Below are positions 4,367-25,853 of a DNA stretch of 30,179 nt, in pieces. Position 1 is the stretch's first letter. The number at the start of each line of letters is the position of its first letter. Below the pieces are notes generated by a model. The model saw nothing but the letters and a program-made list of their open reading frames with translations, was not told where the DNA came from and did not search any database. The position numbers and the translations under genes are program-made. The stretch is from an uncultured bacterium. GTDB taxonomy: Bacteria > Deinococcota > Deinococci > Deinococcales > Marinithermaceae. Location of the stretch: positions 26,727 to 56,905 of the forward strand of contig CAYODT010000010.1 of assembly GCA_964402875.1 (NCBI GenBank). The letters run 5' to 3'.

Positions 4367-4413
4367 GCCCCCTCGCAATATAGAACGTAGTAACATCGGT
4401 CGCGATGATATAC

Positions 4414-4427: not shown

Positions 4428-4439
4428 TTCGACTTAATC

Positions 4440-5080: not shown

Positions 5081-5115
5081 ATATGGATCAGCGACAGTCC
5101 GTGGTGAGGTCTTAA

Positions 5116-8100
5116 ATGGATGCCCTTTGGTATAAAGACGCGGTCATATACGAACTGCTGGTACGCTCGTTCTTCGACGCCAACGGCGACGGTTATGGTG
5201 ATTTCGAGGGACTCAGACACAAGCTGCCTTACTTGGAGCGTTTGGGGGTCGACACCTTGTGGCTGCTACCTTTTTACGAGTCCCCACTCAGAGATGACGG
5301 CTATGATATCTCTGATTACTACAAGATTCTCCCGGTCCACGGCACCTTGGATGATTTCAAGGAGTTCCTAGACGAGGCCCACAGGAAGGGTATGCGGGTA
5401 ATCACCGAACTGGTGCTTAACCATACCTCGGACCAACACCCCTGGTTCCAGGAGTCCCGCCAGCCGGGATCAGCCAGACGCAACTGGTACGTGTGGAGCG
5501 ATACCCCCGAGCGCTACCGGGACGCTCGCGTCATATTCCAGGACTTTGAACACGCCAACTGGACCTGGGACCCGGTGGCACACGCTTACTACTGGCATCG
5601 CTTCTTCTCTCATCAGCCTGATCTCAATTGGGATAATCCTGAGGTAGAAGAAGCACTTAAGCAAGCGTTATTCTTCTGGGCCGACCAGGGCGTGGATGGC
5701 TTCCGCCTGGACGCTATCCCTTACTTGTACGAGCGAGAAGGCACTTCCTGTGAGAATCTACCCGAGACTATCGCGGTGGTTAAGCGCCTTAGAAAAGCGC
5801 TCGAGGAGCGATATGGCCCTACCAAGATCCTGCTGGCCGAGGCCAATCAGTGGCCCGAGGACACGCTTCCTTATTTCGGAAACGGGGATGGGGTACACAT
5901 GGCCTACAACTTTCCGCTCATGCCTCGCATGTTTTTGAGCCTGCGCAGGGAAGATCGCGGCCCTATAGAACAGATGCTCGAGCTCACCAGCGGGATCCCC
6001 GAGACTGCCCAATGGGCCCTCTTCCTACGGAACCACGATGAGCTGACCCTTGAGATGTTGGTGGACGAAGAGCGCGACTATCTGTACCACGAATACGCCA
6101 CCGATCCCCAATATCGCATCAATCTGGGTATACGCCGCAGGCTGGCGCCCCTCTTGGGCGGCGAGCGGCGCCGTATCGAGCTTATGAATGCACTACTTTT
6201 CTCGTTGCCCGGAACGCCGGTCCTTTACTATGGGGACGAGATCTGCATGGGCGATAATCCCTTCTTGGGCGATCGTAACGGGGTACGCACACCCATGCAG
6301 TGGAGTGCAGACCGTAACGCCGGCTTCTCTAGTGCGCCCTTCCATAAGCTATTTCTACCACCGGTTCAGGAGGGGCCCTACAGCTTCAACTTCGTCAACG
6401 TAGAAGCTGAGGAGGCTAACCCCCACTCGTCACTCACTTTTACGCAGCGGCTGCTGGGCATACGCAATCAGTACCGAAAAGTATTCGGTCGAGGCAAGCT
6501 CACCTGGCTGTCGGTGGAGAACCGCGCGGTACTGGCCTTTATACGGACCTATGAAGAGGAATCTGTACTGATAGTAGCCAATCTATCGCGCTATGCACAA
6601 TACGCCGATCTTCCCTTGGACGACTGGCAAGGCCTCGTTCCTTATGAGCTTTTCTCGCAGGGCCCCTTTCCCGACATCAACCAAGACCCTTACCCGATTA
6701 CCCTGGGACCACATGGCTTTTATTGGTTCGTGCTGCGGGACCCGGCCTATTATCCACCACCGGTAAGCGAGGAACCGGAGCTGGAGCTGGCCCCTGCGCC
6801 ACGTGCCCTACCGTGGCTGCGCTTCTACGGCGGCCTGGAAACCATTCTGGTGGAAACCATGGCTAAGGGGGATGCCCGGGTAGCGCTCGAGGCCGAGTTG
6901 CCCGACTTCCTCAAGGCGCAGCGATGGTTCCTGAACACTGGGCAGGAAATAGACAGGGTACGCTTGGCCGACGCAGTGCGGCTAACCACCCAGCCGTTAC
7001 CCATCTATATCAGCACCGTCTATACCGACTATGCCGACCAGACTCAAGAACGCTACCTGTTGCCATTGGCGCTTTCCACCGATAGAGAGCAAACCCGCAC
7101 CTTGCTCAGTGACTATCCCAATTGCGGGGTAGCGTTCGTACGCGCGAACGGTGAGCGCGGCCTGCTGTTCGATGCCACCGTCCTGCCGGCTTTCTGGCAG
7201 GTGCTCTACGAGCGTCTCCTAGCCCGCTGGAAGGGACGCGGCCTTAAAAGTAAATATCGCTTTAGTCCCGCCGGCAGCGAGCTCCCAGCAAGCGGCGCGG
7301 CGCGGATTGCTGACGGAGGCCGGTACAACAGCGCAGCGGTCTTAGGTGAGCAGGTCTTCTTGAAGCTCTACCGGCGGCTCGAGCCCGGCCCTAATCCCCG
7401 GGTGGAGCTACAATCCGCCCTACGTCAGCGCGACTTCCCTTTCGTGCCGAAGCTATATGGTACTTTCGTGGTGCAGCAAGGGGAGCAGCCGGTGCACCTG
7501 GGGATGGCGCAAGCCTACCTGGAGGACCTGCAAAGGGAAACCGACCTATTGCATGAGGAGATCCGCCGGGTGATCGAACGTGCCCGCGGCGTTCTGCCCA
7601 GCGGCGATGAACAGGCCACCGCCTTATGGCTCGAGCACCACGCGGCTGAACTGACCACAACAGCCCTGCAGATCGGCACCCGCACCGGGGAGTTACACCG
7701 CACTCTGGCCCAGGCCGAGGGTCCCGGTATCGACCCTATGCCCACACTCACCGAGAACCTGGCCCAAGTGGCGGCGCGCGCTCGGGGCGCTCTAAACAAG
7801 ATGCGAGCGCACCTATCTACAAAGCAGATCGTAGCCGCCGCACAAATGATCGAGGACCTGCCCATGGAAGGCGGCTGGATGATGATCCGCATTCATGGCA
7901 ACTACGACCCTACGCAACTAGTGAGGAGCTCCGGCGAGCTGTACGTTTTGGGTTTCGAGGGCGAGCCTGGTCACCCGCTGTCTGAGCGGCGCGCACCCGG
8001 GCAAGCACTTTCCGATATGGAACGCATGGCACATGGTCTTTGCTGTACATTGCGAAAGAGTATCAAGCAATATGCAGAGTTCAATGAGTCCTCGTCAGCA

Positions 8101-8331
8101 ACGCACATAGGCGAGCAGTTGATTGAGGCCATGGAAGGGGCATACCGAGAGGCTTATCTTGCCACCGCAGGCCAGGACGCTTCCTTCCTACCAGCCGAGA
8201 CCTCAGCCAGGGATAGGTTGTCGAGAGTGTTCCGCCTCATCTACATCCTGGAGTCACTGACTCCCCCTGCCGACGAGTCCACGGAATCTTGTTATGCCGA
8301 AAAGGACCTGCTCCGGCTGCTTGGCTCGTGA
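5116..8331 (+). CDS. treS: trehalose synthase (TreS) with a long C-terminal maltokinase (Mak/Pep2)-like domain
   Basis: The N-terminal 550 aa match GH13 TreS (LVLNHTSDQHPWFQESR, GFRLDAIPYL, LRNHDELTLE). The C-terminal ~450 aa contain maltokinase-like motifs (IRIHGNYDPTQLV; YVLGFEGEPGHPLSERR). At 1071 aa it exceeds standalone TreS. Its position directly upstream of glgB fits the GlgE alpha-glucan pathway. Confidence 0.85.
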   Translation: MDALWYKDAVIYELLVRSFFDANGDGYGDFEGLRHKLPYLERLGVDTLWLLPFYESPLRDDGYDISDYYKILPVHGTLDDFKEFLDEAHRKGMRVITELVLNHTSDQHPWFQESRQPGSARRNWYVWSDTPERYRDARVIFQDFEHANWTWDPVAHAYYWHRFFSHQPDLNWDNPEVEEALKQALFFWADQGVDGFRLDAIPYLYEREGTSCENLPETIAVVKRLRKALEERYGPTKILLAEANQWPEDTLPYFGNGDGVHMAYNFPLMPRMFLSLRREDRGPIEQMLELTSGIPETAQWALFLRNHDELTLEMLVDEERDYLYHEYATDPQYRINLGIRRRLAPLLGGERRRIELMNALLFSLPGTPVLYYGDEICMGDNPFLGDRNGVRTPMQWSADRNAGFSSAPFHKLFLPPVQEGPYSFNFVNVEAEEANPHSSLTFTQRLLGIRNQYRKVFGRGKLTWLSVENRAVLAFIRTYEEESVLIVANLSRYAQYADLPLDDWQGLVPYELFSQGPFPDINQDPYPITLGPHGFYWFVLRDPAYYPPPVSEEPELELAPAPRALPWLRFYGGLETILVETMAKGDARVALEAELPDFLKAQRWFLNTGQEIDRVRLADAVRLTTQPLPIYISTVYTDYADQTQERYLLPLALSTDREQTRTLLSDYPNCGVAFVRANGERGLLFDATVLPAFWQVLYERLLARWKGRGLKSKYRFSPAGSELPASGAARIADGGRYNSAAVLGEQVFLKLYRRLEPGPNPRVELQSALRQRDFPFVPKLYGTFVVQQGEQPVHLGMAQAYLEDLQRETDLLHEEIRRVIERARGVLPSGDEQATALWLEHHAAELTTTALQIGTRTGELHRTLAQAEGPGIDPMPTLTENLAQVAARARGALNKMRAHLSTKQIVAAAQMIEDLPMEGGWMMIRIHGNYDPTQLVRSSGELYVLGFEGEPGHPLSERRAPGQALSDMERMAHGLCCTLRKSIKQYAEFNESSSATHIGEQLIEAMEGAYREAYLATAGQDASFLPAETSARDRLSRVFRLIYILESLTPPADESTESCYAEKDLLRLLGS

Positions 8332-8394
8332 GCCCGGCCTCTCGGGGGTATCGGCTGCGTTACCGGCCTTAGTATGGATTGTAGGAGGCAGGCC

Positions 8395-10512
8395 GTGAGC
8401 AATCCCATGTCGGATCGTGATGTCTGGCTATGGAGCGAGGGCACTCACCGGGCAGCTTATCTGCAACTCGGCGCACACCCCAGCGACGAAGGCACACGCT
8501 TTGCGGTCTGGGCCCCAAATGCAGATTCGGTTTCGGTGATCGGCGATTTCAATGATTGGAACCCCCGGGCTCATTCGCTGACCAAGGACAACCGCACCGG
8601 AATCTGGCAAGGTTTCATCGGTGAGGCGCGTATCGGCCACCGCTACAAATACCGTATTGCGCGCGGAGCGTTCCAAGCTGATAAGACCGACCCCTACGCA
8701 CGCCACATGGAGCCCCCTATAACCGGTGCAGCCCGGGGGCTCTCCTCGGTAATCTGGAGCACTTGGTACGAATGGGGTGACCGGGCTTGGATGCAGAGCC
8801 GTAAGGGCCCTTCGGGCCTGGGTCAGCCTTTGGCGATATACGAGGTCCACCTAGGTTCCTGGCGCAAGCGGCCCGACGGCTACTCACTCTCCTACCGCGA
8901 TATCGCCCAACCCCTAGCTGACCACGTCCAGCGACTTGGGTTCACACACATTGAACTGATGCCAGTGATGGAGCATCCCTTTTATGGAAGTTGGGGTTAC
9001 CAAGTAGTGGGTTACTATGCCCCCACACACCGTTACGGTACGCCTCAGGACCTGATGTACTTAATCGACTACCTGCATCAGCGGGGCATTGGGGTAATCC
9101 TGGACTGGGTACCCGCACACTTTGCCACCAATCCACAAGGATTGGTCTTTTTCGACGGCAGCCCACTCTACGAATATGGCGACCCTCGGCTAGGGCACCA
9201 CCCCGACTGGGGTACCTACGTATTCGACTATGTCAAACCGGGGGTAAAGAACTTCCTGGTCTCCAATGCGCTCTTCTGGCACGAGCTCTACCACGTAGAC
9301 GGCCTACGCATAGACGCGGTGGCCAGCATGTTATACCGGGATTACTCAAGAGCCGAGGGGGAGTGGCTGGCCAACATGTTTGGAGGGCGGGAAAGCCTGG
9401 AGGCTATTGATCTTCTGAAAGAGGTCAACGAGGCAGTCTACAGCGCCTTTCCCGAATCGATGATGATCGCGGAGGAGTCGACTGCCTGGCCAGGTGTATC
9501 CAAGCCTACCTACGAAGGCGGGCTGGGATTCTTGTATAAGTGGAACATGGGCTGGATGCACGATACCCTGGAGTACATGGCCCACGATCCGGTGCATCGT
9601 AGGTATCATCAGAACGATTTCACTTTCCCCCTTATCTATGCCTTCAGCGAGCATTATATGTTGCCACTCTCGCACGACGAGGTGGTGCACGGCAAGGGCT
9701 CGCTCTGGCAGCGAATGCCCGGTGACGACTGGCAGAAGGCTGCCAACCTACGGCTGCTCTACGGGCATATGCTGGGACACCCGGGCAAGAAGCTGCTATT
9801 CATGGGCCAGGAGTTCGGGCAGGTGGGCGAATGGAGCCATGATCACGGGCTAGAGTGGTCCCTCGCGGACTCGCCGCTACACACCGGCCTCATGCGCTGG
9901 CTCGCGGACGCCCTGTGGTTCTACCGCAAACACCCGGCGCTCTGGAACGACGCGCCCAGCGGGTTCGCCTGGGTGGACTTCTCCGACAGCGGGCAGAGCG
10001 TGGCTAGTTACTTGCGTCGCTCGGAGGAGCATATCTTACTTTTCGTCTTCAACATGACCCCGATACCACGCACGGACTATCGGGTCGGCGTACCCGTGAG
10101 CGGCCGCTGGCTTGAGCGGCTGAACTCCGATGCCGAGGTCTACGGCGGGAGCGGAATGGGCAACCTAGGCAGTGTGGAAGTGGACGAGATTCCCCATCAC
10201 AGCCGGCCGTACTCAATTTCGCTCACCTTACCCCCGCTCGCAGTGCTGGTGCTCGAGCCCCAGGGCCCCATCACCACTAAGCCGGCGCGCAACGAGATTG
10301 AAACAACCTTTGACGCCGAAGCCTTGCGGGCGCTGATCATGAAGCGTAGCGGCCGGCTCTCCCGGGCCGCGGCCGTAGTCGTAGCCGGCCAGGCGCCGAA
10401 AAGCCCCGGAGCGCTACGCGAAGCCGTACGGGCACAGGGTGGGCGCATATCCAAAAAGGGTGCTGAGGCGGTTTTTGTACGTTTGGGGCGCTCCAAACTT
10501 GGAGAACCATAG
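8395..10512 (+). CDS. glgB: 1,4-alpha-glucan branching enzyme GlgB (with unusual ~90-aa basic C-terminal extension)
   Basis: It has a CBM48 N-terminal region ([22 protein letters not shown]), GH13 catalytic regions ([28 protein letters not shown]) and a GlgB-like C-terminal beta domain ([13 protein letters not shown]). The GTG at 8395 has AGGAGG 6 nt upstream. The ORF track start (ATG at 8374) is 7 codons earlier and lacks an SD. Confidence 0.88.
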
Positions 10513-10778
10513 AGACCTTGCCCACAGCGGCCGGGGGAGGCTGAAGTAGACACGTGTGACCTCTGGATGGCTCACAGCTTGTACCGAGCTAAGTTCCCGG
10601 CTGGCTGAGGCCCAAGGGCATATGCCGCCGCCTGCGTCTCCATCTGCCTACAGTCACAACCGGTCCCCACTTACGTATGCCTGAGAGTAAATCTAATAGT
10701 CCTTTATCCCCGGGGGGCATATACAGCTCCGGCAACCGCTACACCGCCCTTTTTGTAGGCACCAGGGCAGGAAATACG

Positions 10779-12068
10779 CTAGCTACTCGCAGCTCGCTGC
10801 TTGAATAGGAAAGCCAGCAGAACAAAGCCTGCGCCCCCTGCGATCACCGAGGCCGCAAGCACCCCTAGCTTGGCCTGGTCCAGGGTTGCCGGGTCGCTAA
10901 AAGCCAGTCCCGCCACGAAGATTGACATAGTGAAGCCGATGCCTCCCAGCACTCCCGCGCCAGCCAGACCGGACCAGCCGACACCGGCGGGCAGCTCGGC
11001 CAGACCCAGCCGGACCGCCAGCCAGGCGGATAGCAGAATACCCAGTGGCTTTCCCAGCAGGAGCCCCAAGAATACCCCCAGTGTCACCGTGCTGAGCCCT
11101 CCGTACGAAACGGCCACCCCGGCGTTAAAGAGCGCGAACAGGGGTAGAACTGCGTAGGCCATCCAAGGTTCCAATAGATGCTCGAGCCTGTGCATGGGAC
11201 TCTGCGCAAGAAGCGCCAGCGACTCCACATCCTCGGCCCGCACCTCTTCCTCCTCGAACCTACCTCTGGTAATCCAGCCGGAAAGCTGCTCCGCTACTTC
11301 CCGCATACTGGCCTTGCGTCCCATGGGCATGGCGAAAGCCAGCAAGATTCCGGCCACCGTGGCATGCACCCCGCTTATCAGCGTAAAATACCAGATCAAA
11401 AGACCCAGCAGGATGTAAATCAGAAGGTTCCGGCCCCCGATACGGCCATAGCCCAGCGCCAAGAGCCAGAACGCCAAAGCCGTAAGAAGCGCCACCAAGG
11501 AGAACTCCTGACGATAGAAAACTGCGATCACGAGTACCGTGCCTAAGTCGTCAATAATAGCCAAGGCGGTCAGGAAGACCTTTAGAGAGGTAGGAATCCG
11601 CTTTCCCAATAAGGCCATCACCCCGAGAGCAAAAGCGATATCGGTAGCCATGGGTACTCCGAAACCGCGTGCGGCTGCACCACCCCCGCCAGCCCACACA
11701 TAAATGAGCGCCGGTATCAACATACCGCCACCCGCAGCAAGCAGGGGCAGGGCGGCCGCCCTGGGATTCTTCAGCTCACCCGCCAGGACTTCTCGCTTAA
11801 TTTCCAAGCCCACCAGCAGGAAGAAGATACTCATCAGCCCGTCGTTGACCCAGTGGAGCAGAGACATTTTCAGGACGAAGCCGCCTACCGAAATGCCCGC
11901 GGAAAGATGCTTGAGCGCCTCATAATCGTGGGAAAGAGGGCTGTTAGCCCATACCAACGCCACCAAGGCGGCTAGGATGAGCACCAACCCGCCGCCGCTC
12001 TCGCTACCCACGAACTGCTGGAAGGGGGCAAGAAACCTGCGGTCAACGGTGCGGATGCGGCTCATCAT
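10779..12068 (-). CDS. nhaA: Na+/H+ antiporter NhaA
   Basis: The NhaA family N-terminus is FLAPFQQFVGSESGGGLVLILAALVALVWANSP, with multiple TM helices and about 430 aa. The start is placed at the ATG-ATG pair (12063-12068), where the homology begins. The ORF track extension to 12143 starts on GTG and has no SD. Confidence 0.85.
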   Translation of the reverse strand: MMSRIRTVDRRFLAPFQQFVGSESGGGLVLILAALVALVWANSPLSHDYEALKHLSAGISVGGFVLKMSLLHWVNDGLMSIFFLLVGLEIKREVLAGELKNPRAAALPLLAAGGGMLIPALIYVWAGGGGAAARGFGVPMATDIAFALGVMALLGKRIPTSLKVFLTALAIIDDLGTVLVIAVFYRQEFSLVALLTALAFWLLALGYGRIGGRNLLIYILLGLLIWYFTLISGVHATVAGILLAFAMPMGRKASMREVAEQLSGWITRGRFEEEEVRAEDVESLALLAQSPMHRLEHLLEPWMAYAVLPLFALFNAGVAVSYGGLSTVTLGVFLGLLLGKPLGILLSAWLAVRLGLAELPAGVGWSGLAGAGVLGGIGFTMSIFVAGLAFSDPATLDQAKLGVLAASVIAGGAGFVLLAFLFKQRAASS

Positions 12069-12415
12069 CCCCAAGCCTACCGCAGTATTCCATTCCAACC
12101 GGGTGCCACAGACGCATTGCGAAATAGTACCTAGAGGAGACACACAGAAGTAGAGGGGCGGCCTTTAGAAATCCCGGATTCCTCATCACCACCTCTCCTA
12201 CGGGCTCGAAGGACCGTTTACGATTGGCTAGCACCATCACGGGAAAAGATATAGCGCATATACCTTCTACAGGGAATAAGGCCAGTTAGCTGGACTCAGG
12301 CAAGCTCGGCAAGGATCATTTATCTTCGCTCTAGGTTCAGGTGCACACGCCCGCCCGGCTGCACCACACCGGTCCATATGTGCCGGGGGCTGCAGAGATC
12401 AGATTTGGATGGTAT

Positions 12416-12440
12416 CAATATGATATCATCCCGGGGTCAA
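12416..12440. promoter_or_regulatory. near-perfect 11-3-11 inverted repeat GGATGGTATCA-ATA-TGATATCATCC abutting the SD of the SPFH gene
   Basis: Seen in the sequence. The arms match at 10 of 11 positions. It ends 1 nt before the AGGAGG SD (12441-12446) of the 12452 start. This is operator-like positioning at the head of the 12452-17391 gene string. Confidence 0.3.
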
Positions 12441-12451
12441 AGGAGGCCTGT

Positions 12452-13330
12452 ATGGTGCGCATTCAAGAAAAGGTTGCATTCCACGTGAACGGCTTCATCG
12501 TGTTGATGGTTGAGCTGGTACTCCTCGTGGTGGGCGTATGGCTGCTGGTAGCTTCGATAGGTAGTGGAGATATCGCTGGGCTGGTTGCAAGCATCATCAT
12601 CCTGCTCACCACGGCTTTGTTGATATCAGGCTTCTTCACCGTACAGCCCAACGAGGCGCGGGTACTTATCTTCTGGGGCCGGTATACCGGCAGCGCACGT
12701 AACGACGGGTTCTGGTGGAGCAACCCCTTTACCTCCAAGCAACATGTCAGTTTGCGGGTACGCAACTTCAACTCCGACAAGCTCAAGGTAAACGATGCCG
12801 GCGGTAGTCCTATAGAGATCGCCGCGGTAGTGGTCTGGCGGGTGGTGGAATCGGCCAAGGCCCTCTTCGATGTGGACGATTACGATCAGTTCGTGAACAT
12901 CCAGGCCGAGACAGCCATCCGTAACCTGGCTACCCGTTATCCCTATGATGCCGCCGGCGAATCCCGCGAGAGCCTGCGGGAAAACCCTGAGGATGTGGCC
13001 ACAGAACTTAAGAAAGAGCTGCAAGACCGGCTCGAGGTGGCGGGAGTCGAGGTAACCGAGGCGCGCCTCACCCACTTGGCCTACACCCCGGAGATCGCCC
13101 AGGCTATGCTGCGGCGCCAGCAAGCCCAAGCTATAGTAGCCGCCAAGAAGCTGATCGTCGAGGCGGCTGTAGGTATGGTCGAAGAAGCCCTAAAGGGGCT
13201 GGCTGAGCGGGGTGTGGTGGATCTGGATTACGAAAAACGCGCCGCCATGGCCAACAATCTGATGGTCGTCCTCACCAGCGAGCAAGCCAGCACACCGGTG
13301 ATCAACACCGGTACACTCTACGGAGGTTGA
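12452..13330 (+). CDS. SPFH/band-7 (stomatin/prohibitin-like) membrane protein
   Basis: An N-terminal TM region (FIVLMVELVLLVVGVWLLVASIG...IIILLTTALLISGFF) is followed by the SPFH core (FTVQPNEARVLIFWGRY...). AAAGGAGG lies 5 nt upstream of the ATG at 12452. The ORF track extension to 12341 lacks support. Confidence 0.85.
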   Translation: MVRIQEKVAFHVNGFIVLMVELVLLVVGVWLLVASIGSGDIAGLVASIIILLTTALLISGFFTVQPNEARVLIFWGRYTGSARNDGFWWSNPFTSKQHVSLRVRNFNSDKLKVNDAGGSPIEIAAVVVWRVVESAKALFDVDDYDQFVNIQAETAIRNLATRYPYDAAGESRESLRENPEDVATELKKELQDRLEVAGVEVTEARLTHLAYTPEIAQAMLRRQQAQAIVAAKKLIVEAAVGMVEEALKGLAERGVVDLDYEKRAAMANNLMVVLTSEQASTPVINTGTLYGG

Positions 13331-13331
13331 T

Positions 13332-14984
13332 ATGCGCGCCCTGTTTGCTGCACTACTATTGGGATTCGCTGGCGCCGCAGCCCAGAACTACCAGATTCTG
13401 CAGGGTACGGCCATTCTCGGAAAGGCCAGCGTGCAGACCGAGAGAACCGTGACGGGCTATGTCTTGCAGGGTTCCGCGGAGGTCCGTGGAGCCTTCAGCT
13501 GGCAGAGCAGCCTTCGACTCAATGCCGCATACCGGCCCACAGCCTATACCTTGACCGGCAAAGTGCGGGGTACGTCTGTAAAGATCAGGGTAGCCTTCAA
13601 GCCGGATAACATCGAGGAGGCTGTCGAGCAGGGCGGGAAGAGCCAGAGCATCAACCTTCCCACCTCCGGCCCGGTCTACCTGGTGGACAACAATCTCATG
13701 AACGGCTGGCAGGCGCTGCTCCTGGCGCTCGACTACCGGGAGCTCTCTGCGCAGCGCTTCAGGGTGTTGATTCCCCAGGTTGCGTCTCTCGGGTGGGTGA
13801 GCTTCAAGGTGGGCAAGCAGGCAACCCACCCGGCCGGTGGGAAGACTTATACTGCCTACCCGGTTGAGGCAGCGCTTGAATTCGGCTCCCAGACCATACA
13901 TCTAAACCTGTGGGCCGAAGTGAAAACGCATACCTTACTCGGACTCTTCCAGCAGCAGGGCCGGGTGCGCTTCTTGCTGAGCGTAGGTAAGGCCGAGGCC
14001 CCCGCTAACCCCCTAGCGGCACGCTTTGCAGGGCAGGAACACTGTTTTACGAGCCTGTCCGTCAAGGTGAACTCGGCCGGGGCCACATTGTACGGCAGCC
14101 TCACCCTGCCCAAGGGCCCGGGGCCTTTCCCAGCGCTATTGCTCATCCCCGGCTCGGGCCCGGTGGACCAGAACGGCAACGTAGCCGGCGTACTCATGGA
14201 CAACACCTATAAGCAACTGGCCCACGAGCTCTCTTGCAATGGCTACGGCGTGCTGCGTTACAACAAGCCGGGTCTTGCGCCCAGCACCGGCGACGGCAAC
14301 CGCGTCACCCTGGAGACCTACGCGGAGAACGTGGCCGCTTGGTTCAAGCTGCTCGCCTCCACCGCGCGCATCGACCCAACCCGTCTGGCTTTGATGGGCC
14401 ACTCCGAGGGCGGGCTGATCGCGCTATTCGCCGCCAAGGAGGGCTACGTGCATCCGGCGGCGCTAGTGTTGCTCGAAAGCCCAGGGCTACCCTTCACGGA
14501 AGTGGTAAAGACGCAAATGGTCTTTCAGGCCGGGCTCAAGGGCGAGTCCAGCGCGCAGATCAAGGGCCTCAAAGCCCTGGTGAACCAAACCTTCTCAGCC
14601 ATCGAAGCCGGCACTTCGGACACCCTGGAGCTAAAAGGCGCACTGGCCGAGAATCCGCTGGCTAGGCTCTTCGCCCACGCGGCCGGGCTGCTCAGAAGCG
14701 AGGCGGAGGAAGATCCCGCGCGGCTGATTCAAGGCCTCGATATGCCCATACTGATCGTTCAGGGAGGAGCCGATATCCAGGTACTGCCGGAAAATGGCCG
14801 AAGCCTGCACCTTGCAGACCCAAACGCCGGCTACGTACTCATTCCCAAGCTTACCCACGGTCTGGTCCGGTGTACCCAGTCGCTGCTTGCCTGCGCGCTG
14901 CCGACCCCAGGTGAGCCGCTCGACAACACCTTCGTCACGAACCTCGGAACCTGGCTGAACACCCATCTCAAGGAAGCGCGTTAG
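13332..14984 (+). CDS. secreted alpha/beta-hydrolase (serine hydrolase, GHSEGG nucleophile elbow) with ~230-aa N-terminal beta-rich domain of unknown function
   Basis: It has a signal peptide (MRALFAALLLGFAGAAAQ). The C-terminal half is an alpha/beta hydrolase (PALLLIPGSGPVDQNG, LALMGHSEGG, ILIVQGGAD). The start is 1 nt after the SPFH stop and has a GGAGG SD, so it is translationally coupled. Confidence 0.8.
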   Translation: MRALFAALLLGFAGAAAQNYQILQGTAILGKASVQTERTVTGYVLQGSAEVRGAFSWQSSLRLNAAYRPTAYTLTGKVRGTSVKIRVAFKPDNIEEAVEQGGKSQSINLPTSGPVYLVDNNLMNGWQALLLALDYRELSAQRFRVLIPQVASLGWVSFKVGKQATHPAGGKTYTAYPVEAALEFGSQTIHLNLWAEVKTHTLLGLFQQQGRVRFLLSVGKAEAPANPLAARFAGQEHCFTSLSVKVNSAGATLYGSLTLPKGPGPFPALLLIPGSGPVDQNGNVAGVLMDNTYKQLAHELSCNGYGVLRYNKPGLAPSTGDGNRVTLETYAENVAAWFKLLASTARIDPTRLALMGHSEGGLIALFAAKEGYVHPAALVLLESPGLPFTEVVKTQMVFQAGLKGESSAQIKGLKALVNQTFSAIEAGTSDTLELKGALAENPLARLFAHAAGLLRSEAEEDPARLIQGLDMPILIVQGGADIQVLPENGRSLHLADPNAGYVLIPKLTHGLVRCTQSLLACALPTPGEPLDNTFVTNLGTWLNTHLKEAR

Positions 14985-14990
14985 GGGGAA

Positions 14991-15173
14991 ATGGCGGAGA
15001 AAAAGCGTCTACTACTAAGGGTCGATCCCAAGGTCCACCAGGCCATTGAGAAATGGGCCGCGGATGATCTGCGCAGTGTGAACGCGCAGATCGAGTTCCT
15101 GTTGAAGCAGGCCCTGAAGCAGGCCCACAGGATTAGAGGCAACGATGAAAAAGATAGTGCTCCGGCGCGATAA
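14991..15173 (+). CDS. Arc/MetJ-type ribbon-helix-helix DNA-binding protein (60 aa)
   Basis: LLLRVDPKVHQAIEKWAADDLRSVNAQIEFLLKQAL matches the Arc-family RHH pattern (beta strand, two helices, and R-S-x-N before helix B). GGGGGA lies 5 nt upstream. It begins 6 nt after the hydrolase stop and overlaps the next gene by 29 nt. Confidence 0.7.
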   Translation: MAEKKRLLLRVDPKVHQAIEKWAADDLRSVNAQIEFLLKQALKQAHRIRGNDEKDSAPAR

Positions 15174-15687
15174 ACCCACAATCTGGCTGCCCCTACTCCT
15201 AATCGTAGTGGATATCTCCAGTCTGGCCGTGCTGGCCGTGCAAGCCCTCGAGAACCCTGGAGCTACGCCCTGGTGGGCCTGGCTGTTGATCATCGTGTCC
15301 TTAGCCGTGGTTTTAGGCAGCTTGTCCTGGATGATGTTGCGCGCCCCTTCGCGCCTGCTGTACTTGGCGCAGGGCCGAAACCTGGTGATTCAGACCTTAG
15401 CGGGCCGGCGCACCATCCGCCGGACCCAGGTGAAAAGTACTGAACGTGTGAACTACAACCTGGGTGCCTATGGCTACCGCCTCGAACCGCTACGAAGCAC
15501 CCTGCCCGGCTACTACGTAGGGTCTTTCTGGCCAAAGGGACTTGGTCGCGTGACGGCCTTCGTGGGGATGCGCAGGGGCGAAGGCCTGTTAATCTCACTT
15601 ACCGGAAATAAACAGCTGCTTTTGAACCCGCAGGATCCCGGCGAAATCCTGGCGCTCTTCGGCCGGGAAACGGGGAGTGGTATGTGA
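15145..15687 (+). CDS. membrane protein: two N-terminal TM helices + bacterial PH-like (bPH) domain
   Basis: After MKKIVLRRDKPTIW come two hydrophobic helices and then a ~100-aa beta-rich domain (LYLAQGRNLVIQTLAGRRTIRRTQV...GLLISLTGNKQLLLNPQDPGEILALFG) that resembles the YdbS/YdbT-type bacterial PH fold. AGAGG lies 7 nt upstream. It overlaps the downstream ABC ATPase by 4 nt (GTGA). Confidence 0.55.
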   Translation: MKKIVLRRDKPTIWLPLLLIVVDISSLAVLAVQALENPGATPWWAWLLIIVSLAVVLGSLSWMMLRAPSRLLYLAQGRNLVIQTLAGRRTIRRTQVKSTERVNYNLGAYGYRLEPLRSTLPGYYVGSFWPKGLGRVTAFVGMRRGEGLLISLTGNKQLLLNPQDPGEILALFGRETGSGM

Positions 15688-16607
15688 ACGGCGCCTTGCC
15701 CACGCTTCGGTACTCCGGCGTGTTCGCGGGTTACGGAACCCGCGCCGTGCTAACCGGCATAGAGCTGGAACTGGGCCCCGGCTTCTACGTGGTCTTAGGG
15801 ACCAACGGCGCGGGTAAAACCACCTTGTTCCGTGTGGGCGCCGGCATCCTCCCTCCTTCCCGCGGCCAACTGCACATCCTGGGTAAAGATCCCTTTACCG
15901 ACCCCTCCATCAAAGCCAAGGTCGGCTACCTGTCCCACCACGCCGGTCTCTACCCCGATCTACGGGTGGTGGACAACCTGCGGTTTTGGGGACGGGTGCT
16001 GGGCTTGAAGGCGGCCCACCTGGAACAACGGCTGGAGATCCTCTCGGGTCAGCTGGATCTGGCCGAGCTGCTCAACAGGCCCGCGCATACCTTGAGCCAA
16101 GGCCAAGCCAGGCGGGCGGGAATGGCTCGTGCACTCTTGAACAATCCCGCGCTGCTCTTTCTGGACGAGCCTACTAGCGGGCTGGATCCCGCAGCGGCGC
16201 GTACCCTGCGTAATCTGCTGAAAAGTCTGGCCACGGACGGACGCACCCTACTTTTCTCCACGCACAACCTTCACGAGGCCAGCGAGCTGGCCACGGAGGT
16301 GGTGGTGATCCGCGATGGCGCCATCTTTGCGCGCGGCCCGGTCGACGAGCTTGCGGCCCGGTTCGCCGATGCCATAACCATGGGCTTCAAGCTGGACTCC
16401 GACCCGTGCAAGGTGCTCACCGGCTTGGGTTTGGCCGCCAAGTACCAGGATGGGTACTGGCAGGTGAGCTTCGGCCGCAAGCAGGACCCGGCCGATACCA
16501 TCCGTGCCTTGGTGGAAGCGGGTATTCGCGTTCGGGAAGCACGTGAAATGGGAAATCCGCTCGAGCGCATCTACCTGGCCCTGGACAAGGAGGAGACCCA
16601 TGCGTGA
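15684..16607 (+). CDS. ABC transporter ATP-binding protein (ABC-2/DrrA-like exporter subfamily)
   Basis: Walker A GTNGAGKTT, Q-loop, signature LSQGQARRAGMA, Walker B LLFLDEPTSGLD and H-loop STHNLHE are all present. It starts on GTG with GGGGAG 6 nt upstream. Confidence 0.85.
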   Translation: MNGALPTLRYSGVFAGYGTRAVLTGIELELGPGFYVVLGTNGAGKTTLFRVGAGILPPSRGQLHILGKDPFTDPSIKAKVGYLSHHAGLYPDLRVVDNLRFWGRVLGLKAAHLEQRLEILSGQLDLAELLNRPAHTLSQGQARRAGMARALLNNPALLFLDEPTSGLDPAAARTLRNLLKSLATDGRTLLFSTHNLHEASELATEVVVIRDGAIFARGPVDELAARFADAITMGFKLDSDPCKVLTGLGLAAKYQDGYWQVSFGRKQDPADTIRALVEAGIRVREAREMGNPLERIYLALDKEETHA

Positions 16608-17391
16608 AATCATGCGGCTCGGCAGGGCGCTGATCTGGCGCACGCGGCGGGAGCAGGGCCGGCGGCTGATAGGCCTGCCCCTGATCTTTGCATTGGCTCT
16701 CCTGGCTATGGTGCTCATTACACTCTACCTGCCCTGGCTACTCACCGGCCCTACCCGCTACGCACTCGCGCGCGCCGCGGAAGCCCGGTTCGGCACCAGC
16801 CTGGGAACCACCGGACTGGCCATGGCCTTGCTGTTTCTGCAAGGGCCCTACCTGCTGGCCATGTTTGCCGCCTACCAAGGCGCCAGTCTAGCCCAAGCGG
16901 CGGTGGGCGGAGAAACCTCCCGGGGTGGGCTCGAGCTACTCCTTTCGGCACCCTTTCTCCCACGCACACTCTTCCTGGCGCTGCTGACCAGCTCCCTGAG
17001 CCTTACCCTCTTCGCTTGGGCGATCATGACCCTGGGCAGCCTGGGCATTGCCGCCGGGGTTCTGCTGGCACTCTCCGTACCCCTGCCGATCTCTGCGGGT
17101 TACCTGGCCACGGCCCTGCTGCTGCCCTTACCCTTGGCGCTGTGGGCTAACACCACCGGGCTTTTCGTGGGCTTAGCCTTCCCGCGCCTGGCCCAGCTCC
17201 GCACCGGCAACACCAACCTTTTACAGCTCCTGGCGATGCTCCCGGCGGGGGCGCTCTTGTTGACGGCCACTCTGTTCCCGGACCTTAATCCTCTTGTACT
17301 GAACGGGGCGGCGCTGGCGCTGGGCCTGGTGGGTGCGGGCTTAGCCGCGAGCCTTCTGGCGCGCTGGTTCCGGGTCGAGGCGGTGCTCTAG
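16600..17391 (+). CDS. ABC-2 family transporter permease (6 predicted TM segments)
   Basis: It is a hydrophobic 264-aa protein. The ATG at 16600 has AAGGAGGAG 5 nt upstream and overlaps the ATPase stop by 8 nt. The ORF track start at 16504 lies inside the ATPase gene and is rejected. Confidence 0.7.
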   Translation: MREIMRLGRALIWRTRREQGRRLIGLPLIFALALLAMVLITLYLPWLLTGPTRYALARAAEARFGTSLGTTGLAMALLFLQGPYLLAMFAAYQGASLAQAAVGGETSRGGLELLLSAPFLPRTLFLALLTSSLSLTLFAWAIMTLGSLGIAAGVLLALSVPLPISAGYLATALLLPLPLALWANTTGLFVGLAFPRLAQLRTGNTNLLQLLAMLPAGALLLTATLFPDLNPLVLNGAALALGLVGAGLAASLLARWFRVEAVL

Positions 17392-17629
17392 GAAACGGCG
17401 CTCCGGGAAGTGTGTATCGGCCCCGAGCCTACCCAGCCCCCGGGCTTCACCTCCCGCACCGCCTCGGAGCTTGAACGCAGCATAGAAACCACCCCGTTTC
17501 GCGGCCATTCCCTCAGGCCCCCATCTCCGGGGTTGGTGGCGGCCGGGCGGCCCTTTTAGCCGGGTGCCCAAAACTGGGAATACGGTGCCTGTCCTTGCCT
17601 ACAGCGTCCCCTCTGGCTATAGTGAGCCT

Positions 17630-17725
17630 ATGTTTACGAAGACCCTCCTGTTTAAGTGGTGGCCCGGCTAAGCCGGGGCGTGTCTTCGTGTACCCCTGGG
17701 GCCACTGGTGTTCCGGGGGTTTTTC
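17630..17725 (+). promoter_or_regulatory. trpL: trp operon leader peptide (MFTKTLLFKWWPG*, 13 codons with tandem UGG-UGG) plus alternative hairpins and an intrinsic terminator (attenuator)
   Basis: The ATG at 17630 opens a 13-codon frame ending in TAA at 17669-17671, with the Trp codons at 17657-17662. Hairpin CCCGGC-UAA-GCCGGG (17663-17677) engulfs the stop. The terminator stem is ACCCCUGG (17692-17699) paired with CCGGGGGU (17713-17720), followed by UUUUU (17720-17724). GCCGGGG (17672-17678) can alternatively pair with CCCCUGG as an antiterminator. It lies directly upstream of trpE. Confidence 0.6.
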
Positions 17726-17745
17726 GATCTTCCTGGGGGTGTGCG

Positions 17746-19152
17746 TTGCCTACAATTGCGATCAAGGAAACCTTATTGGCTGACCTGGAAACACCGGTTA
17801 CGGCCTATCTGAAACTCTCTGAACACGCCGAGGTCAGTTTTCTGCTGGAGTCGGTGGAGGCGGGGCGCCGTTGGAGCCGCTACTCGTTCATCGGGGTGGG
17901 CGCAAACCGCATATTTCGCCTGAAGAACGGCCGGATGACCGTAAATGGTGAGGAGACGCTTACAGACAACCCCCTAGATTCACTGTACCAGGCCATCAGC
18001 CGCAAGGTGGAAAGCGGACCACGGTTGCCTTTCTGGGGCGGCGCGGTGGGCTACGTGGCCTACGACCTGGCGCGCAGCTACGAACGTCTACCCAGCGAGA
18101 ATCCCGACGACTTGAATCTGCCCGAACTGTTGTTCATCGAGCCGCGAGTGGTGGCGGTCTTCGATCATTTCAAGCAACAACTGCACCTGGTGGCCGCCGC
18201 CGAGGCCGGTACAGCCGGAGCGGTTGAGAGCGCCAGGGAGCGGGTTTTAGAAGCTAAGAAGCGGCTCTTGGGACCGCTCCCGGGAGTGGCGGGTACCCGC
18301 GCGGGCGGACGCACGACGTTCACTCCCAATATGAGCAAGGCTAGCTACCAGGAAGCGGTGCAGCGGGCGGTGACCTATATTCGGGCCGGAGATATATTCC
18401 AGGTGGTGCCCAGCCTGCGTCTTTCAGCGCCGCTCCGGGTACACCCCTTCGCCCTCTACCGCGCGCTCAGGAGTATCAACCCAAGCCCCTATATGGGATA
18501 TCTGGATCTGGGTGAGGTCACGTTAGTCTCGGGAAGCCCGGAAAGCCTGCTGCGCTCGGAGCCGGGTGGCCGGGTGGTAACCCGCCCGATTGCCGGCACC
18601 CGCCCACGTGGTGATAATGCGGCCGAGGACGCCGAACTCGCGGTGGAGCTGTTGGCCAGCGAGAAGGAGCGGGCCGAGCACGTGATGCTGCTCGACCTGT
18701 CCAGAAATGACCTGGGGCGGGTCTCGCGTTTTGGCAGCGTACGCGTCACCGAGCAACTGGTAGTCGAGCAGTACTCGCATGTCATGCACCTGGTGAGTAC
18801 CGTCGAGGGCCGCCTAGCCGAGGGCAAAACCCCGCTCGACGCCCTAGCCTCGGTATTGCCCATGGGCACAGTCTCCGGTGCCCCCAAGATCCGGGCCATG
18901 GAGATTATCGAGGAGCTCGAGCCTTGTCGTAGAGGCCCCTACGGCGGGGCCTTCGGCTACCTAGGCTACAACGGCCAGATGGACATGGCCCTCACCCTAC
19001 GCACCTTCGTTATTGCGAACGGGCGGGTACACGTGCAAGCCGGAGCCGGCGTAGTGGCTGACAGCCGGCCCCAACCCGAATACCAAGAGTGTCTTAACAA
19101 AGCGCAAGCGCTCTTAAAGGCCGCCCGTATGGCTGAGGAGGGGCTCGAATGA
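17746..19152 (+). CDS. trpE: anthranilate synthase component I
   Basis: [39 protein letters not shown] and LRTFV are hallmark TrpE motifs. The open frame runs back to 17656 through the attenuator, but no ATG or GTG is available after the terminator. A TTG at 17746 with GGGGGT 4 nt upstream is the most plausible start ([18 protein letters not shown]...). The start is uncertain by +/- ~10 codons. Confidence 0.85.
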
Positions 19153-22682: not shown

Positions 22683-23081
22683 TCAAAGGAACCCTAGGCC
22701 GGTCATCAAGGCCCGGCCCGACAGCAGGAAGGCTAGCAGCAACCCCCAAAAGAGATACATGCCCACCCGGGGCGGTGGGTTCGTCAAGGTCCGGTAGAAC
22801 CAGCCGCTTTGGGGCTTGAGTCCTCCCAGGAAATGGAGCAACACTACGGTCAGCGTGCCATAGACCGCATGTAGAGGCTCATTAGGCCGCAGGCCACCCC
22901 AAATCATCAAAAGCCCACTGGCCAATTGTGCTATGGCCAGGTAGGCTAAGTATTGCACCCAGTCAAACCGCCTGGCCGCCGGCTCGCGACGCAAGCTGGA
23001 CAGGTTCAGCAGCCAAAGCACCAAGGCCGCCGCAGGTATTACAAACGCTAGGATTATATGAAGAATCAAGAGTAGGGCCAT
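22683..23081 (-). CDS. hypothetical small membrane protein (about 4 TM)
   Basis: It is hydrophobic and helix-rich (MALLLILHIILAFVIPAAALVLWLL...). It has no recognisable family. The start is chosen at the ATG at 23079-23081. The ORF track start at 23165 is a TTG adjacent to the gyrB SD. It is divergent from gyrB. Confidence 0.4.
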   Translation of the reverse strand: MALLLILHIILAFVIPAAALVLWLLNLSSLRREPAARRFDWVQYLAYLAIAQLASGLLMIWGGLRPNEPLHAVYGTLTVVLLHFLGGLKPQSGWFYRTLTNPPPRVGMYLFWGLLLAFLLSGRALMTGLGFL

Positions 23082-23146
23082 GGCCCTACTCTGCCACACC
23101 AAACACAGCAGGCCGGGCCCGAGAAGCCTGGTATACTGCCTTGTAG

Positions 23147-25781: not shown

Positions 25782-25791
25782 GCTGTAATTA

Positions 25792-25816: not shown

Positions 25817-25853
25817 CGAGATCAGAGCTATCAGTGGGTGCGGGGGTCGGAAG

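What the first reader, a model, noticed from the sequence alone, without database searches (positions are those of the whole stretch)
12416..17391. Six tightly packed genes: SPFH protein / secreted serine hydrolase / Arc-type RHH / PH-like membrane protein / ABC-2 ATPase / ABC-2 permease
From 12452 to 17391, six genes follow each other with a 1-nt gap, a 6-nt gap, and 29-, 4- and 8-nt overlaps. The whole string is headed by an 11-3-11 operator-like palindrome that abuts the first SD. The composition is unusual. SPFH proteins normally pair with NfeD membrane proteases, but here the partner is a secreted alpha/beta hydrolase that carries a 230-aa N-terminal domain of unknown function. A ribbon-helix-helix regulator sits in the middle of the string rather than at its head, overlapping a 2-TM PH-like protein that is translationally coupled to an ABC-2 exporter. 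I do not recognise this combination as a described system. It could be a membrane-microdomain or envelope-remodelling / export module with a built-in RHH autoregulator.
Basis: partly seen in the sequence, partly recalled or inferred. Interest (0 to 1): 0.7.

Follow-up and report, generated by a model that had tools for sequence, protein, structure and literature searches.

The report
Self-repressed SPFH membrane-scaffold operon with add-ons
The six genes are built around a widespread but unstudied two-gene cassette, a membrane-scaffold (SPFH) protein plus its own small Arc-like DNA-binding protein, headed by a control site conserved across bacterial phyla; this lineage has added a secreted esterase-like enzyme, a small membrane protein and an export pump.

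Summary
The six genes, their gaps and overlaps and their domain calls are real. The "11-3-11 palindrome" lies at 12407-12431, not 12416-12440, and does not abut the ribosome-binding site.

The conserved core is SPFH + Arc-like RHH, not SPFH + hydrolase. In 80 SPFH-seeded metagenome loci, 75 carry an RHH homologue downstream on the same strand; 3 of the 5 misses have under 100 nt of downstream sequence.

Upstream of the SPFH gene there is a conserved operator. It consists of TGATATCA boxes spaced exactly 11 bp apart, and the central box overlaps an extended -10. Exact TGATATCA occurs in 58/77 upstream regions against 1/1520 control windows. I infer autorepression by the RHH.

The other genes are accessories:
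- The secreted hydrolase recurs in Deinococcota, Sphingomonadales and Bacteroidota, in different gene orders.
- The 2-TM bPH_5 protein recurs in about 9% of loci.
- The ABC-2 pair follows the core only here and in one other locus, and its closest homologues stand alone elsewhere.

The SPFH family is probably "SPFH6" of Hinderhofer 2009, whose supplement hints at a COG4877 partner. I found no functional study. Physiological role is unknown; envelope maintenance or protection is my inference.

The parts
12410..12439 (+). Operator/promoter. Box 1 is TGGTATCA (12410-12417). Box 2 is TGATATCA (12421-12428); together with the following T it reads TGnTATCAT, an extended -10. Box 3 is degenerate, CGGGGTCA (12432-12439). 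The period is 11 bp.
   Evidence: Sequence. Box matches. The same three-box arrangement is seen upstream of SPFH homologues in about 60 of 77 loci, and box spacing is 11 nt (90 pairs) or 22 nt (32 pairs) with no other spacing above 4.
12407..12431 (.). It is a by-product of boxes 1 and 2.
12442..12446 (+). GGAGG ribosome-binding site of the SPFH gene.
   Evidence: read directly from the sequence.
12452..13330 (+). SPFH/Band-7 membrane scaffold of 292 aa, with two N-terminal TM helices and a C-terminal PV[IV]N[AT]GTLY motif. Probably the SPFH6 subfamily.
   Evidence: Band_7 at 5e-26. Alignment A2 has 58% mean column identity across phyla. Profile hits to HflK, stomatin and QmcA structures. TM segments.
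13332..14984 (+). Secreted two-domain serine hydrolase of 550 aa: signal peptide, an all-beta N-domain (~17-217) and an alpha/beta-hydrolase domain with a GHSEG nucleophile elbow.
   Evidence: The AF2 model has pLDDT 88. Foldseek top hits are esterases and lipases at E ~1e-14. The N-domain is weakly DUF6134/DUF3108-like.
14991..15173 (+). Arc-like ribbon-helix-helix protein of 60 aa; the putative autorepressor.
   Evidence: Found downstream of SPFH in 75 of 80 SPFH-seeded loci.
15145..15687 (+). 2-TM membrane protein with a C-terminal bPH_5 domain (180 aa). Its start overlaps the RHH gene by 29 nt.
   Evidence: Orthologues in L004 and L010 start at the same residue and overlap their RHH genes by 8 nt.
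15684..16607 (+). ABC ATPase, DrrA-like (307 aa).
   Evidence: ABC_tran at 5e-26. TIGR01188 drrA at 1.4e-46, below the family cut-off.
16600..17391 (+). ABC-2-type permease of 263 aa with about 6 TM helices. It belongs to a small divergent family.
   Evidence: 86 representatives found by exhaustive HMMER. 10 of 30 homologues hit ABC2_membrane_2. Homologues directly follow a g5-like ATPase in L169, L170 and L171.

Best explanation
The locus is an operon built on an ancient two-gene cassette. The first gene encodes a membrane-anchored SPFH scaffold, probably with its SPFH domain in the cytoplasm. The second encodes a small Arc-like RHH protein.

I infer that RHH dimers bind a row of 8-bp palindromic TGATATCA boxes spaced one helical turn (11 bp) apart. 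The central box doubles as the extended -10 element of the promoter, so binding would block RNA polymerase and the operon would repress itself.

In this Deinococcota-like lineage three envelope-directed accessories have been added to the same transcription unit:
- a secreted esterase/lipase-like hydrolase, inserted between the SPFH and RHH genes;
- a 2-TM bPH_5 protein, translationally coupled to the RHH gene;
- an ABC-2 exporter at the end.

What is shown: gene order and coupling, near-obligate SPFH-RHH linkage, conservation and periodicity of the boxes, and recurrence of the hydrolase and bPH genes in other gene orders.

What is inferred: RHH-box binding, autorepression, co-transcription of all six genes, SPFH topology, and a role in membrane or envelope maintenance or protection.
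For: SPFH-RHH linkage:
- 75 of 80 SPFH-seeded metagenome loci carry an RHH homologue downstream on the same strand. Most gaps are 30 nt or less.
- The pair is present in Deinococcota, Sphingomonadales, Bacteroidota, the Bacillus cereus group and an ORF-predicted high-GC contig.

Operator:
- Exact TGATATCA lies within 150 nt upstream of the SPFH start in 58 of 77 loci, against 1 of 1520 control windows.
- Box-to-box distances are 11 nt (90 pairs), 22 nt (32) and 33 nt (3); no other distance exceeds 4.
- A TTGACA-like -35 sits 16-18 nt upstream of TATCAT in 25 of 60 aligned loci.
- The boxes persist in Bacteroidota. From my own knowledge, promoter consensus differs there.
- Three SPFH homologues without an RHH (L176-L178) also lack the boxes.

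RHH identity:
- The RHH family profile matches Arc repressor at E = 3e-8 to 1e-3 over the strand and both helices.

Accessories:
- Hydrolase: order SPFH-hydrolase-RHH in L002, L004, L007, L010, L011 and L013; order SPFH-RHH-hydrolase in L019, L049, L053 and L064.
- Alistipes L068 reads SPFH-RHH-4TM-bPH_5-hydrolase.
- All 10 bPH hits in 1.6 Mb of fetched loci lie inside SPFH-RHH strings.
- L159 reads SPFH-RHH-ABC ATPase-ABC-2 permease.

Operon structure:
- No promoter-like site lies inside the string, and the only terminator-like site is a weak one within g6.
Against: - No binding or expression data exist.
- In the window only two boxes are good; box 3 has 4 mismatches. No TTGACA-like -35 is evident.
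- The single-sequence AF2 monomer of the RHH gave one long helix, not an RHH fold.
- Neither a signal that would relieve repression nor the physiological role is known.
- The ABC-2 pair follows the core only in this species and in L159. Its nearest homologues (45-52% identity) sit beside radical-SAM/SPASM genes with no SPFH or RHH, so it may be a passenger.
- The hydrolase is absent from the 53 SPFH-seeded loci with enough flank.
- The double box alone is not specific in phage DNA: only 1 of 120 matches lies next to an SPFH-RHH pair.
Confidence: 0.6

Rival explanations
1. Only the SPFH-hydrolase-RHH(-bPH) part is a functional unit. The ABC-2 ATPase and permease form an unrelated exporter, for example a peptide or bacteriocin immunity pump, that landed downstream and is merely read through.
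For: - g5-g6 homologues (45-52% identity) occur as a stand-alone pair in L169, L170 and L171 with no SPFH, RHH or bPH. In L170 and L171 they lie next to radical-SAM/SPASM genes.
- Relatives L004 and L010 end at bPH. L002, L007, L011 and L013 end at the RHH.
Against: - 4-nt and 8-nt overlaps link bPH, ATPase and permease.
- An independent locus, L159, has SPFH-RHH followed directly by an ABC-2 ATPase and permease.
- No internal promoter-like site was found.
Confidence: 0.35
2. The SPFH-RHH pair is a toxin-antitoxin-like, addiction or abortive-infection module. The RHH would be an antitoxin that also represses the operon, and the membrane protein would be the harmful partner.
For: - The RHH is annotated 'HicB family antitoxin' in Bacillus thuringiensis, and it gives weak ParD-like, HicB and FitA hits.
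- Copies lie on Deinococcus plasmids beside AbiE toxin-antitoxin genes and IS elements.
- Operator-mediated autoregulation by an RHH is typical of type II systems (my own knowledge).
Against: - There are no PADLOC hits for the SPFH, RHH, bPH or hydrolase proteins.
- The SPFH protein is a highly conserved scaffold, with 58% mean column identity across phyla.
- The RHH C-terminal tail, which would be the toxin-binding part, is not conserved.
- The pair sits in syntenic chromosomal contexts: dCTP deaminase/kinase/regulator neighbours in Deinococcales-type loci, and pcrA...purD in the B. cereus-group record.
Confidence: 0.1
3. The TGATATCA boxes are not the RHH's operator. They would be a promoter architecture or the site of another factor, and the RHH would act elsewhere or bind protein rather than DNA.
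For: - The central box coincides with an extended -10.
- No binding data exist.
- The motif also occurs in phage contigs unrelated to SPFH.
Against: - Three palindromic boxes at a strict 11-bp period are not explained by a promoter alone.
- The boxes persist in phyla with different promoter consensus.
- They are absent where the RHH is absent.
- The predicted DNA-reading strand of the RHH is highly conserved: L9, R10 and D12 are invariant and F7 nearly so.
- Sphingomonad copies carry RGRP, AT-hook-like tails.
Confidence: 0.08

Closest known systems
SPFH6 subfamily of prokaryotic SPFH proteins (Hinderhofer et al. 2009, PMC2636767)
   Same: - Membrane-anchored SPFH proteins of about 280-300 aa, spread patchily over Actinobacteria, Firmicutes, Bacteroidetes and Deinococcus.
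- Additional file 1 annotates some SPFH6 entries 'COG4877 not detected', which implies that a small COG4877 gene was normally seen beside them.
- B. anthracis has three SPFH proteins in that table. By elimination, the one matching the purD-adjacent B. cereus-group homologue is the SPFH6 entry NP_842851.
   Different: - The paper's main text says subfamilies 6-12 'contain no documented member proteins' and never mentions COG4877.
- It does not identify the partner as an Arc-like RHH, the operator, or the hydrolase, bPH and ABC-2 accessories.
- My assignment to SPFH6 is by elimination, not by direct sequence comparison.
SPFH-NfeD operons (stomatin/QmcA-YbbJ, FloT/FloA-NfeD, PH1511-PH1510)
   Same: An SPFH scaffold co-transcribed with a dedicated partner gene. 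The profile of this family matches HflK, stomatin and QmcA structures.
   Different: There is no NfeD here or in any related locus. The constant partner is a cytoplasmic DNA-binding protein. The variable partners are small membrane proteins (bPH_5, DUF3592) and a secreted hydrolase.
Arc/Mnt (phage P22), MetJ and CopG ribbon-helix-helix repressors
   Same: The sequence profile matches Arc, including the RSVN helix-B cap. Tandem short palindromic boxes bound cooperatively by dimers are how MetJ works on its 8-bp met-boxes (my own knowledge).
   Different: The box sequence is TGATATCA and the period is 11 bp. From memory, MetJ uses abutting 8-bp boxes and Arc a single 21-bp operator. This protein regulates a membrane-scaffold operon and is encoded at its end.
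Bacillus subtilis sigma-W envelope-protection operons yqeZ-floA-yqfB and ydbST
   Same: An SPFH protein and bPH-domain membrane proteins that protect against membrane-active antimicrobials: sublancin and amylocyclicin (PMC8144471). This is the basis for my envelope-protection inference.
   Different: These are different SPFH and bPH subfamilies, in separate operons, controlled by an ECF sigma factor rather than a local RHH. No homology-based transfer of function is justified.

Membership tests
SPFH / Band 7 superfamily | SPFH domain scoring above Pfam's gathering cut-off | tested here: met
   PF01145 at 92.2 bits against a cut-off of 23.6. The family profile hits HflK, stomatin and QmcA structures.
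SPFH6 subfamily (Hinderhofer 2009) | Sequence clustering with the listed SPFH6 members, for example B. anthracis NP_842851 | tested here: inconclusive
   There was no access to the listed sequences. The assignment is by elimination among the three B. anthracis SPFH proteins plus the genomic position next to purD.
SPFH6 subfamily (Hinderhofer 2009) | An adjacent small 'COG4877' gene | tested here: inconclusive
   A small conserved gene is adjacent in 75 of 80 loci. That it is COG4877 is inferred, because no COG model was available.
SPFH-NfeD operon | An NfeD-domain gene in the operon | tested here: not met
   None of the six proteins gave an NfeD hit in Pfam or NCBIfam. No NfeD appears in the neighbourhood tables.
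Arc/MetJ ribbon-helix-helix superfamily | Significant sequence similarity over the strand-helix-helix core | tested here: met
   The profile of 13 orthologues matches Arc repressor chains at E = 3e-8 to 1e-3 over residues 1-48. 8 of 13 members hit Pfam Arc or RHH_5 at up to 1e-5. The window protein alone is below cut-off (19.6 against 26; 16.6 against 20.4).
Arc/MetJ ribbon-helix-helix superfamily | Predicted ribbon-helix-helix fold | tested here: inconclusive
   A single-sequence AF2 monomer gave helices 2-8 and 13-55 at pLDDT 83. The fold forms only in the dimer.
Arc/MetJ ribbon-helix-helix superfamily | Sequence-specific DNA binding to a repeated operator | not testable with these tools
   Indirect support only: conserved three-box site and co-absence of RHH and boxes.
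Type II toxin-antitoxin system | A recognisable toxin partner and a conserved toxin-binding tail on the antitoxin | tested here: not met
   No toxin family was found among the neighbours. The RHH tail is not conserved.
bPH_5 bacterial PH-domain proteins | PF10882 scoring above the gathering cut-off | tested here: inconclusive
   The window protein scores 21.0 bits against a cut-off of 22.5. Homologues detected by BLAST or my HMM score 25.0 (L010), 29.0 (L134), 40.4 (L140) and 57.8 bits (L068).
ABC-2 type exporter | An ABC ATPase followed by an ABC2_membrane-family permease | tested here: met
   ATPase: ABC_tran at 92 bits. Permease: no direct hit, but 10 of 30 homologues hit ABC2_membrane_2 (best 3.9e-9), and homologues follow a g5-like ATPase in three other loci.
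Alpha/beta-hydrolase (esterase/lipase-like) | Alpha/beta fold with a G-x-S-x-G nucleophile elbow | tested here: met
   GHSEG, with H357 invariant and S358 nearly so. Hydrolase_4 scores above cut-off. Foldseek hits to lipases and esterases at E ~1e-14, TM-score (normalised to the target) 0.7-0.84.
Known anti-phage defence systems (PADLOC) | A match of the signature proteins to a system model | tested here: not met
   Only generic ATPase similarity for g5; nothing for the other five proteins.

The most novel reading that the evidence does not exclude
The RHH is more than a housekeeping autorepressor. The SPFH cage, alone or with small membrane clients such as the 2-TM bPH_5 protein acting in the place of NfeD, would hold or release the RHH according to the state of the membrane. 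The cassette would then be a self-contained membrane-status-to-transcription switch, conserved across at least four phyla.
Probability: 0.15. Interest if true: 0.8.

Novelty: new variant of a known kind. Interest (0 to 1): 0.62.

Why it matters
Bacterial SPFH proteins are widely discussed as organisers of membrane microdomains. Apart from the NfeD and FtsH partnerships, their partners and regulation are poorly known.

This work shows one whole SPFH subfamily, present in Deinococcota, Bacillota, Bacteroidota and Pseudomonadota, that is almost always encoded with its own Arc-like DNA-binding protein. It is preceded by a three-box site conserved across those phyla.

That gives an immediately testable regulatory circuit: gel-shift assays, reporter fusions and deletions in tractable hosts such as Bacillus cereus or Bacteroides. 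It also gives a short list of recurrent accessory genes (secreted esterase, bPH_5 membrane protein, ABC-2 pump) that point to what the scaffold works with.

Tried and rejected
- Word-index homology searches for the bPH protein and the permease found only near-identical copies. Exhaustive HMMER was needed for the permease.
- Exact-sequence look-ups of the window's own proteins found no source contig.
- The repeat finder missed the palindrome because a mismatch splits the seeds.
The single-sequence model was uninformative.
- Foldseek on the full hydrolase model returned only catalytic-domain matches, so the N-domain fold remains unassigned. A profile search against the PDB gave nothing. hhalign against one DUF3108 protein gave only 6% probability.
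- The PADLOC defence scan was negative.
- The Rfam scan of 12100-17800 was negative.
- Literature searches were unproductive: 'SPFH' + 'ribbon-helix-helix', 'Arc family', protein accessions, COG4877 and TGATATCA gave nothing relevant, and SPFH6 returned only the 2009 Hinderhofer paper.
- A motif-seeded scan of viral contigs gave 120 or more matches, of which only one lay next to an SPFH-RHH pair. The count is about what chance predicts in AT-rich DNA, so it is uninformative.
- The FlotP protein of B. anthracis and the PaFlo proteins of P. aeruginosa were checked. FlotP belongs to a different subfamily, SPFH2a. The PaFlo paper reports no RHH partner.

Full report
**1. Observation**

The ORF list confirms six same-strand genes:

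| Gene | Coordinates | Product | Size |
|---|---|---|---|
| g1 | 12452-13330 | SPFH | 292 aa |
| g2 | 13332-14984 | hydrolase | 550 aa |
| g3 | 14991-15173 | RHH | 60 aa |
| g4 | 15145-15687 | bPH | 180 aa |
| g5 | 15684-16607 | ABC ATPase | 307 aa |
| g6 | 16600-17391 | permease | 263 aa, from the ATG inside the longer ORF |

The spacing is exactly as stated: a 1-nt gap, a 6-nt gap, and 29-, 4- and 8-nt overlaps.

The palindrome is misplaced. GGATGGTATCA-ATA-TGATATCATCC lies at 12407-12431 with one mismatch, and 10 nt separate it from GGAGG at 12442-12446. Taken alone it is unremarkable, because mononucleotide shuffles of the window give about 4 hits of that quality.

**2. What each gene is**

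- **g1** is a Band_7/SPFH protein (5e-26) with two N-terminal hydrophobic helices.
- **g2** has an obvious signal peptide (MRALFAALLLGFAGAAAQ), a conserved N-terminal region with no Pfam family, and an alpha/beta-hydrolase domain with GHSEG.
  - Its AF2 model (pLDDT 88) shows an all-beta N-domain at residues ~17-217 and a canonical hydrolase domain.
  - The nearest solved structures are esterases and lipases: 7qjm, lipase TTL 7q4h, feruloyl esterases and PET46, at E ~1e-14.
  - Two of eleven N-domain homologues weakly hit DUF6134 (7.7e-5) and two hit DUF3108 (4e-3).
- **g3** scores below Pfam cut-offs for RHH_5 and Arc. A profile of 13 orthologues matches Arc repressor chains in the PDB at E = 3e-8 to 1e-3 across the strand and both helices.
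  - The only structure prediction allowed was single-sequence and monomeric. It gave one long helix. I treat this as inconclusive.
- **g4** has two TM helices and a bPH_5 match just under cut-off (21.0 against 22.5 bits). Homologues detected by BLAST or my HMM score 25-58 bits.
- **g5** is a DrrA-like ABC ATPase.
- **g6** has no direct family hit.
  - Exhaustive HMMER finds 86 representatives, and 10 of 30 aligned homologues hit ABC2_membrane_2.
  - In L169, L170 and L171 a homologue directly follows a g5-like ATPase.

**3. Which genes travel together**

*Hydrolase-seeded searches*:

| Gene order | Loci |
|---|---|
| SPFH-hydrolase-RHH | Trueperaceae- or Deinococcales-labelled MAGs L004, L010, L013; unlabelled MAG or metagenome contigs L002, L007, L011 |
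| followed by a bPH homologue (33-37% identity) | L004 and L010 only |
| followed by the ABC pair | nowhere except L001, a fragment of the same species |
| full-length hydrolase standing alone | L005/L006, L009, L015, L016, L023 |
| SPFH-RHH-hydrolase, with a short hydrolase form that also has a signal peptide | Sphingomonadales L019, L049, L053, L064 |
| SPFH-RHH-4TM protein-bPH_5 (57.8 bits)-hydrolase | Alistipes L068 |

The same families recur in different orders in different phyla. That argues for functional linkage rather than inherited adjacency.

*SPFH-seeded search.* This was the unbiased test. It returned 80 metagenome loci at 46-68% identity.

- 75 of them have an RHH homologue downstream on the same strand.
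- 3 of the 5 misses have under 100 nt of downstream sequence.
- Most SPFH-RHH gaps are 30 nt or less.
- Among the 53 loci with at least 650 nt beyond the RHH, 5 carry a 2-TM bPH protein, placed either between the SPFH and RHH genes or after the RHH.
- None of the 53 carries this hydrolase subfamily.
- All ten bPH hits in 1.6 Mb of fetched DNA lie inside SPFH-RHH strings.
- One locus, L159, reads SPFH-RHH-ABC ATPase-ABC-2 permease.

*Annotated records* show the pair as follows:

| Record | Annotation of the small gene after 'SPFH domain-containing protein' |
|---|---|
| Deinococcus wulumuqiensis plasmid | 'hypothetical protein' |
| Bacillus thuringiensis | 'HicB family antitoxin' |
| Parabacteroides distasonis | 'Arc family DNA-binding protein' |

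The core is therefore SPFH + RHH. The hydrolase and bPH genes are recurrent accessories. The ABC-2 pair is a separable module: its closest homologues (45-52% identity) sit next to radical-SAM/SPASM genes with none of the other families present.

**4. The operator**

Aligning the DNA upstream of the SPFH start codons exposed a conserved site: a central TGATATCA flanked at -11 and +11 bp by GATATC-like boxes. Examples:

- L090: TTGACTTTGTGATATCGCTATGATATCATTGTGCTATCA
- L148: TTGACAATATGATATCATAATGATATCAATATATAAT
- B. thuringiensis: TTGCTTAAAATGATATAAAAGTGATATCATTTTTATATCAGGAGG

The numbers:

- Exact TGATATCA within 150 nt upstream occurs in 58 of 77 non-redundant loci; 68 of 77 allowing one mismatch.
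- In control windows from the same loci the figures are 1 of 1520 and 33 of 1520.
- Distances between boxes are 11 nt (90 pairs), 22 nt (32) and 33 nt (3). No other distance exceeds 4.
- In the column profile the central box is 92-100% conserved and the flanking boxes 50-88%.
- A TTGACA-like hexamer lies 16-18 nt upstream of TATCAT in 25 of 60 aligned loci. The central box is therefore TGnTATCAT, an extended -10.
- The boxes persist in Bacteroidota loci.
- They are absent upstream of three SPFH homologues that lack an RHH: Vibrio, Pseudomonas amygdali, and Deinococcus proteolyticus next to IS elements.

In the window, box 1 is TGGTATCA (12410-12417), box 2 is TGATATCA (12421-12428) and box 3 is degenerate (12432-12439). 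Exact TGATATCA occurs only twice in the 30 kb, at 12421 and 12621.

**5. Mechanism**

*Shown:*
- tight packing and translational coupling;
- near-obligate SPFH-RHH linkage;
- a periodic palindromic site overlapping the -10;
- co-absence of RHH and boxes.

*Inferred:*
- RHH dimers occupy the boxes on one face of the helix and shut off the promoter, giving negative autoregulation.
- All six genes are one transcript. There is no internal promoter-like site, and only a weak terminator-like site inside g6.
- The SPFH domain is cytoplasmic, from two TM helices with a short neutral or acidic loop between them.
- The hydrolase acts outside the cytoplasm, from its signal peptide and invariant cysteines C238 and C302.

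*Physiological role.* This is not established. I lean to envelope or membrane maintenance or protection, because every accessory is envelope-directed. In addition, in B. subtilis an SPFH operon and the bPH operon ydbST protect against membrane-active peptides (PMC8144471). That is an analogy, not a homology-based transfer of function.

**6. Comparison with what is known**

Hinderhofer et al. (2009) divided prokaryotic SPFH proteins into 12 subfamilies and stated that subfamilies 6-12 have no documented members. Their Additional file 1 marks several SPFH6 entries 'COG4877 not detected'. This implies that they normally saw a COG4877 gene beside SPFH6, yet the main text never mentions it.

B. anthracis has three SPFH entries in that table: SPFH1a, SPFH2a (FlotP) and SPFH6 (NP_842851). 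By elimination, the purD-adjacent B. cereus-group homologue of g1 is the SPFH6 one. So the pair was probably noticed in a supplement. I found no paper on SPFH6 or COG4877 beyond this one, and none on an SPFH-RHH pair or the operator.

The locus is not an SPFH-NfeD operon, because no NfeD is present. It matches no PADLOC defence system and no Rfam family.

**7. Verdict**

The emphasis needs correcting: the unit is an autoregulated SPFH-RHH cassette, and this window shows its most elaborated known form. I rate it a new variant of known kinds (SPFH operons and RHH autoregulation), with interest of about 0.6.

Noticed in passing
window 17595-17730: A classic trp attenuator lies upstream of trpE. 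It has a promoter-like TTGCCT-17-TATAGT, a 13-codon leader peptide MFTKTLLFKWWPG with tandem Trp codons (17630-17671), and a terminator hairpin at 17692-17720 followed by a T-run. The ORF listing start of trpE at 17656 is therefore an ORF artefact.
   Followed up: partly
window 12621-12628: A second exact TGATATCA lies 200 nt downstream of the operator, inside the SPFH coding region. These are the only two exact copies in 30 kb. It could be an auxiliary site or chance.
   Followed up: no
window 86-115, 3752-3779, 23068-23093, 25791-25817: Long perfect or near-perfect palindromes were found by the arm-11 scan, for example CGCCTTACCCACCG-CA-CGGTGGGTAAGGCG at 86-115. Their nature was not examined.
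   Followed up: no
L090 1758-2312, L094 7036-7590, L093 1971-2555, L102 696-1208: A 170-194-aa protein family with no Pfam match and a hydrophobic C-terminus (…EYPWIIMLGF…) sits either between the SPFH and RHH genes or right after the RHH. It is another recurrent accessory of unknown fold.
   Followed up: partly
L019, L049, L053, L064 (RHH C-termini): The Sphingomonadales RHH copies end in K/R-RGRPP-K/R tails that resemble AT-hooks. The Deinococcota copies lack them.
   Followed up: no
L173 (Deinococcus wulumuqiensis plasmid pDrdIV), about 3740-3775: Here the operator is a single 20-bp perfect palindrome, TCAAAGTGATATCACTTTGA, just after a TTGACT -35. The cassette lies among AbiE toxin-antitoxin, Fic and IS5 genes.
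   Followed up: no
L178 (Deinococcus proteolyticus pDEIPR01) 3719-5269: An SPFH homologue (50% identity) has neither the RHH nor the boxes and is followed by three IS elements. It looks like a decayed copy.
   Followed up: partly
L170 (GCA_001748285.1) 6087-11147: The closest homologues of g5-g6 follow a radical-SAM/SPASM gene and precede a PLDc_N protein and a second ABC-2 pair, with a Cas3 gene nearby. This looks like a peptide-maturation and export cluster.
   Followed up: no
L243 (IMG/VR contig) 3245-4487: One contig classed as viral carries the double box followed by an SPFH-RHH pair (37% and 44% identity).
   Followed up: no
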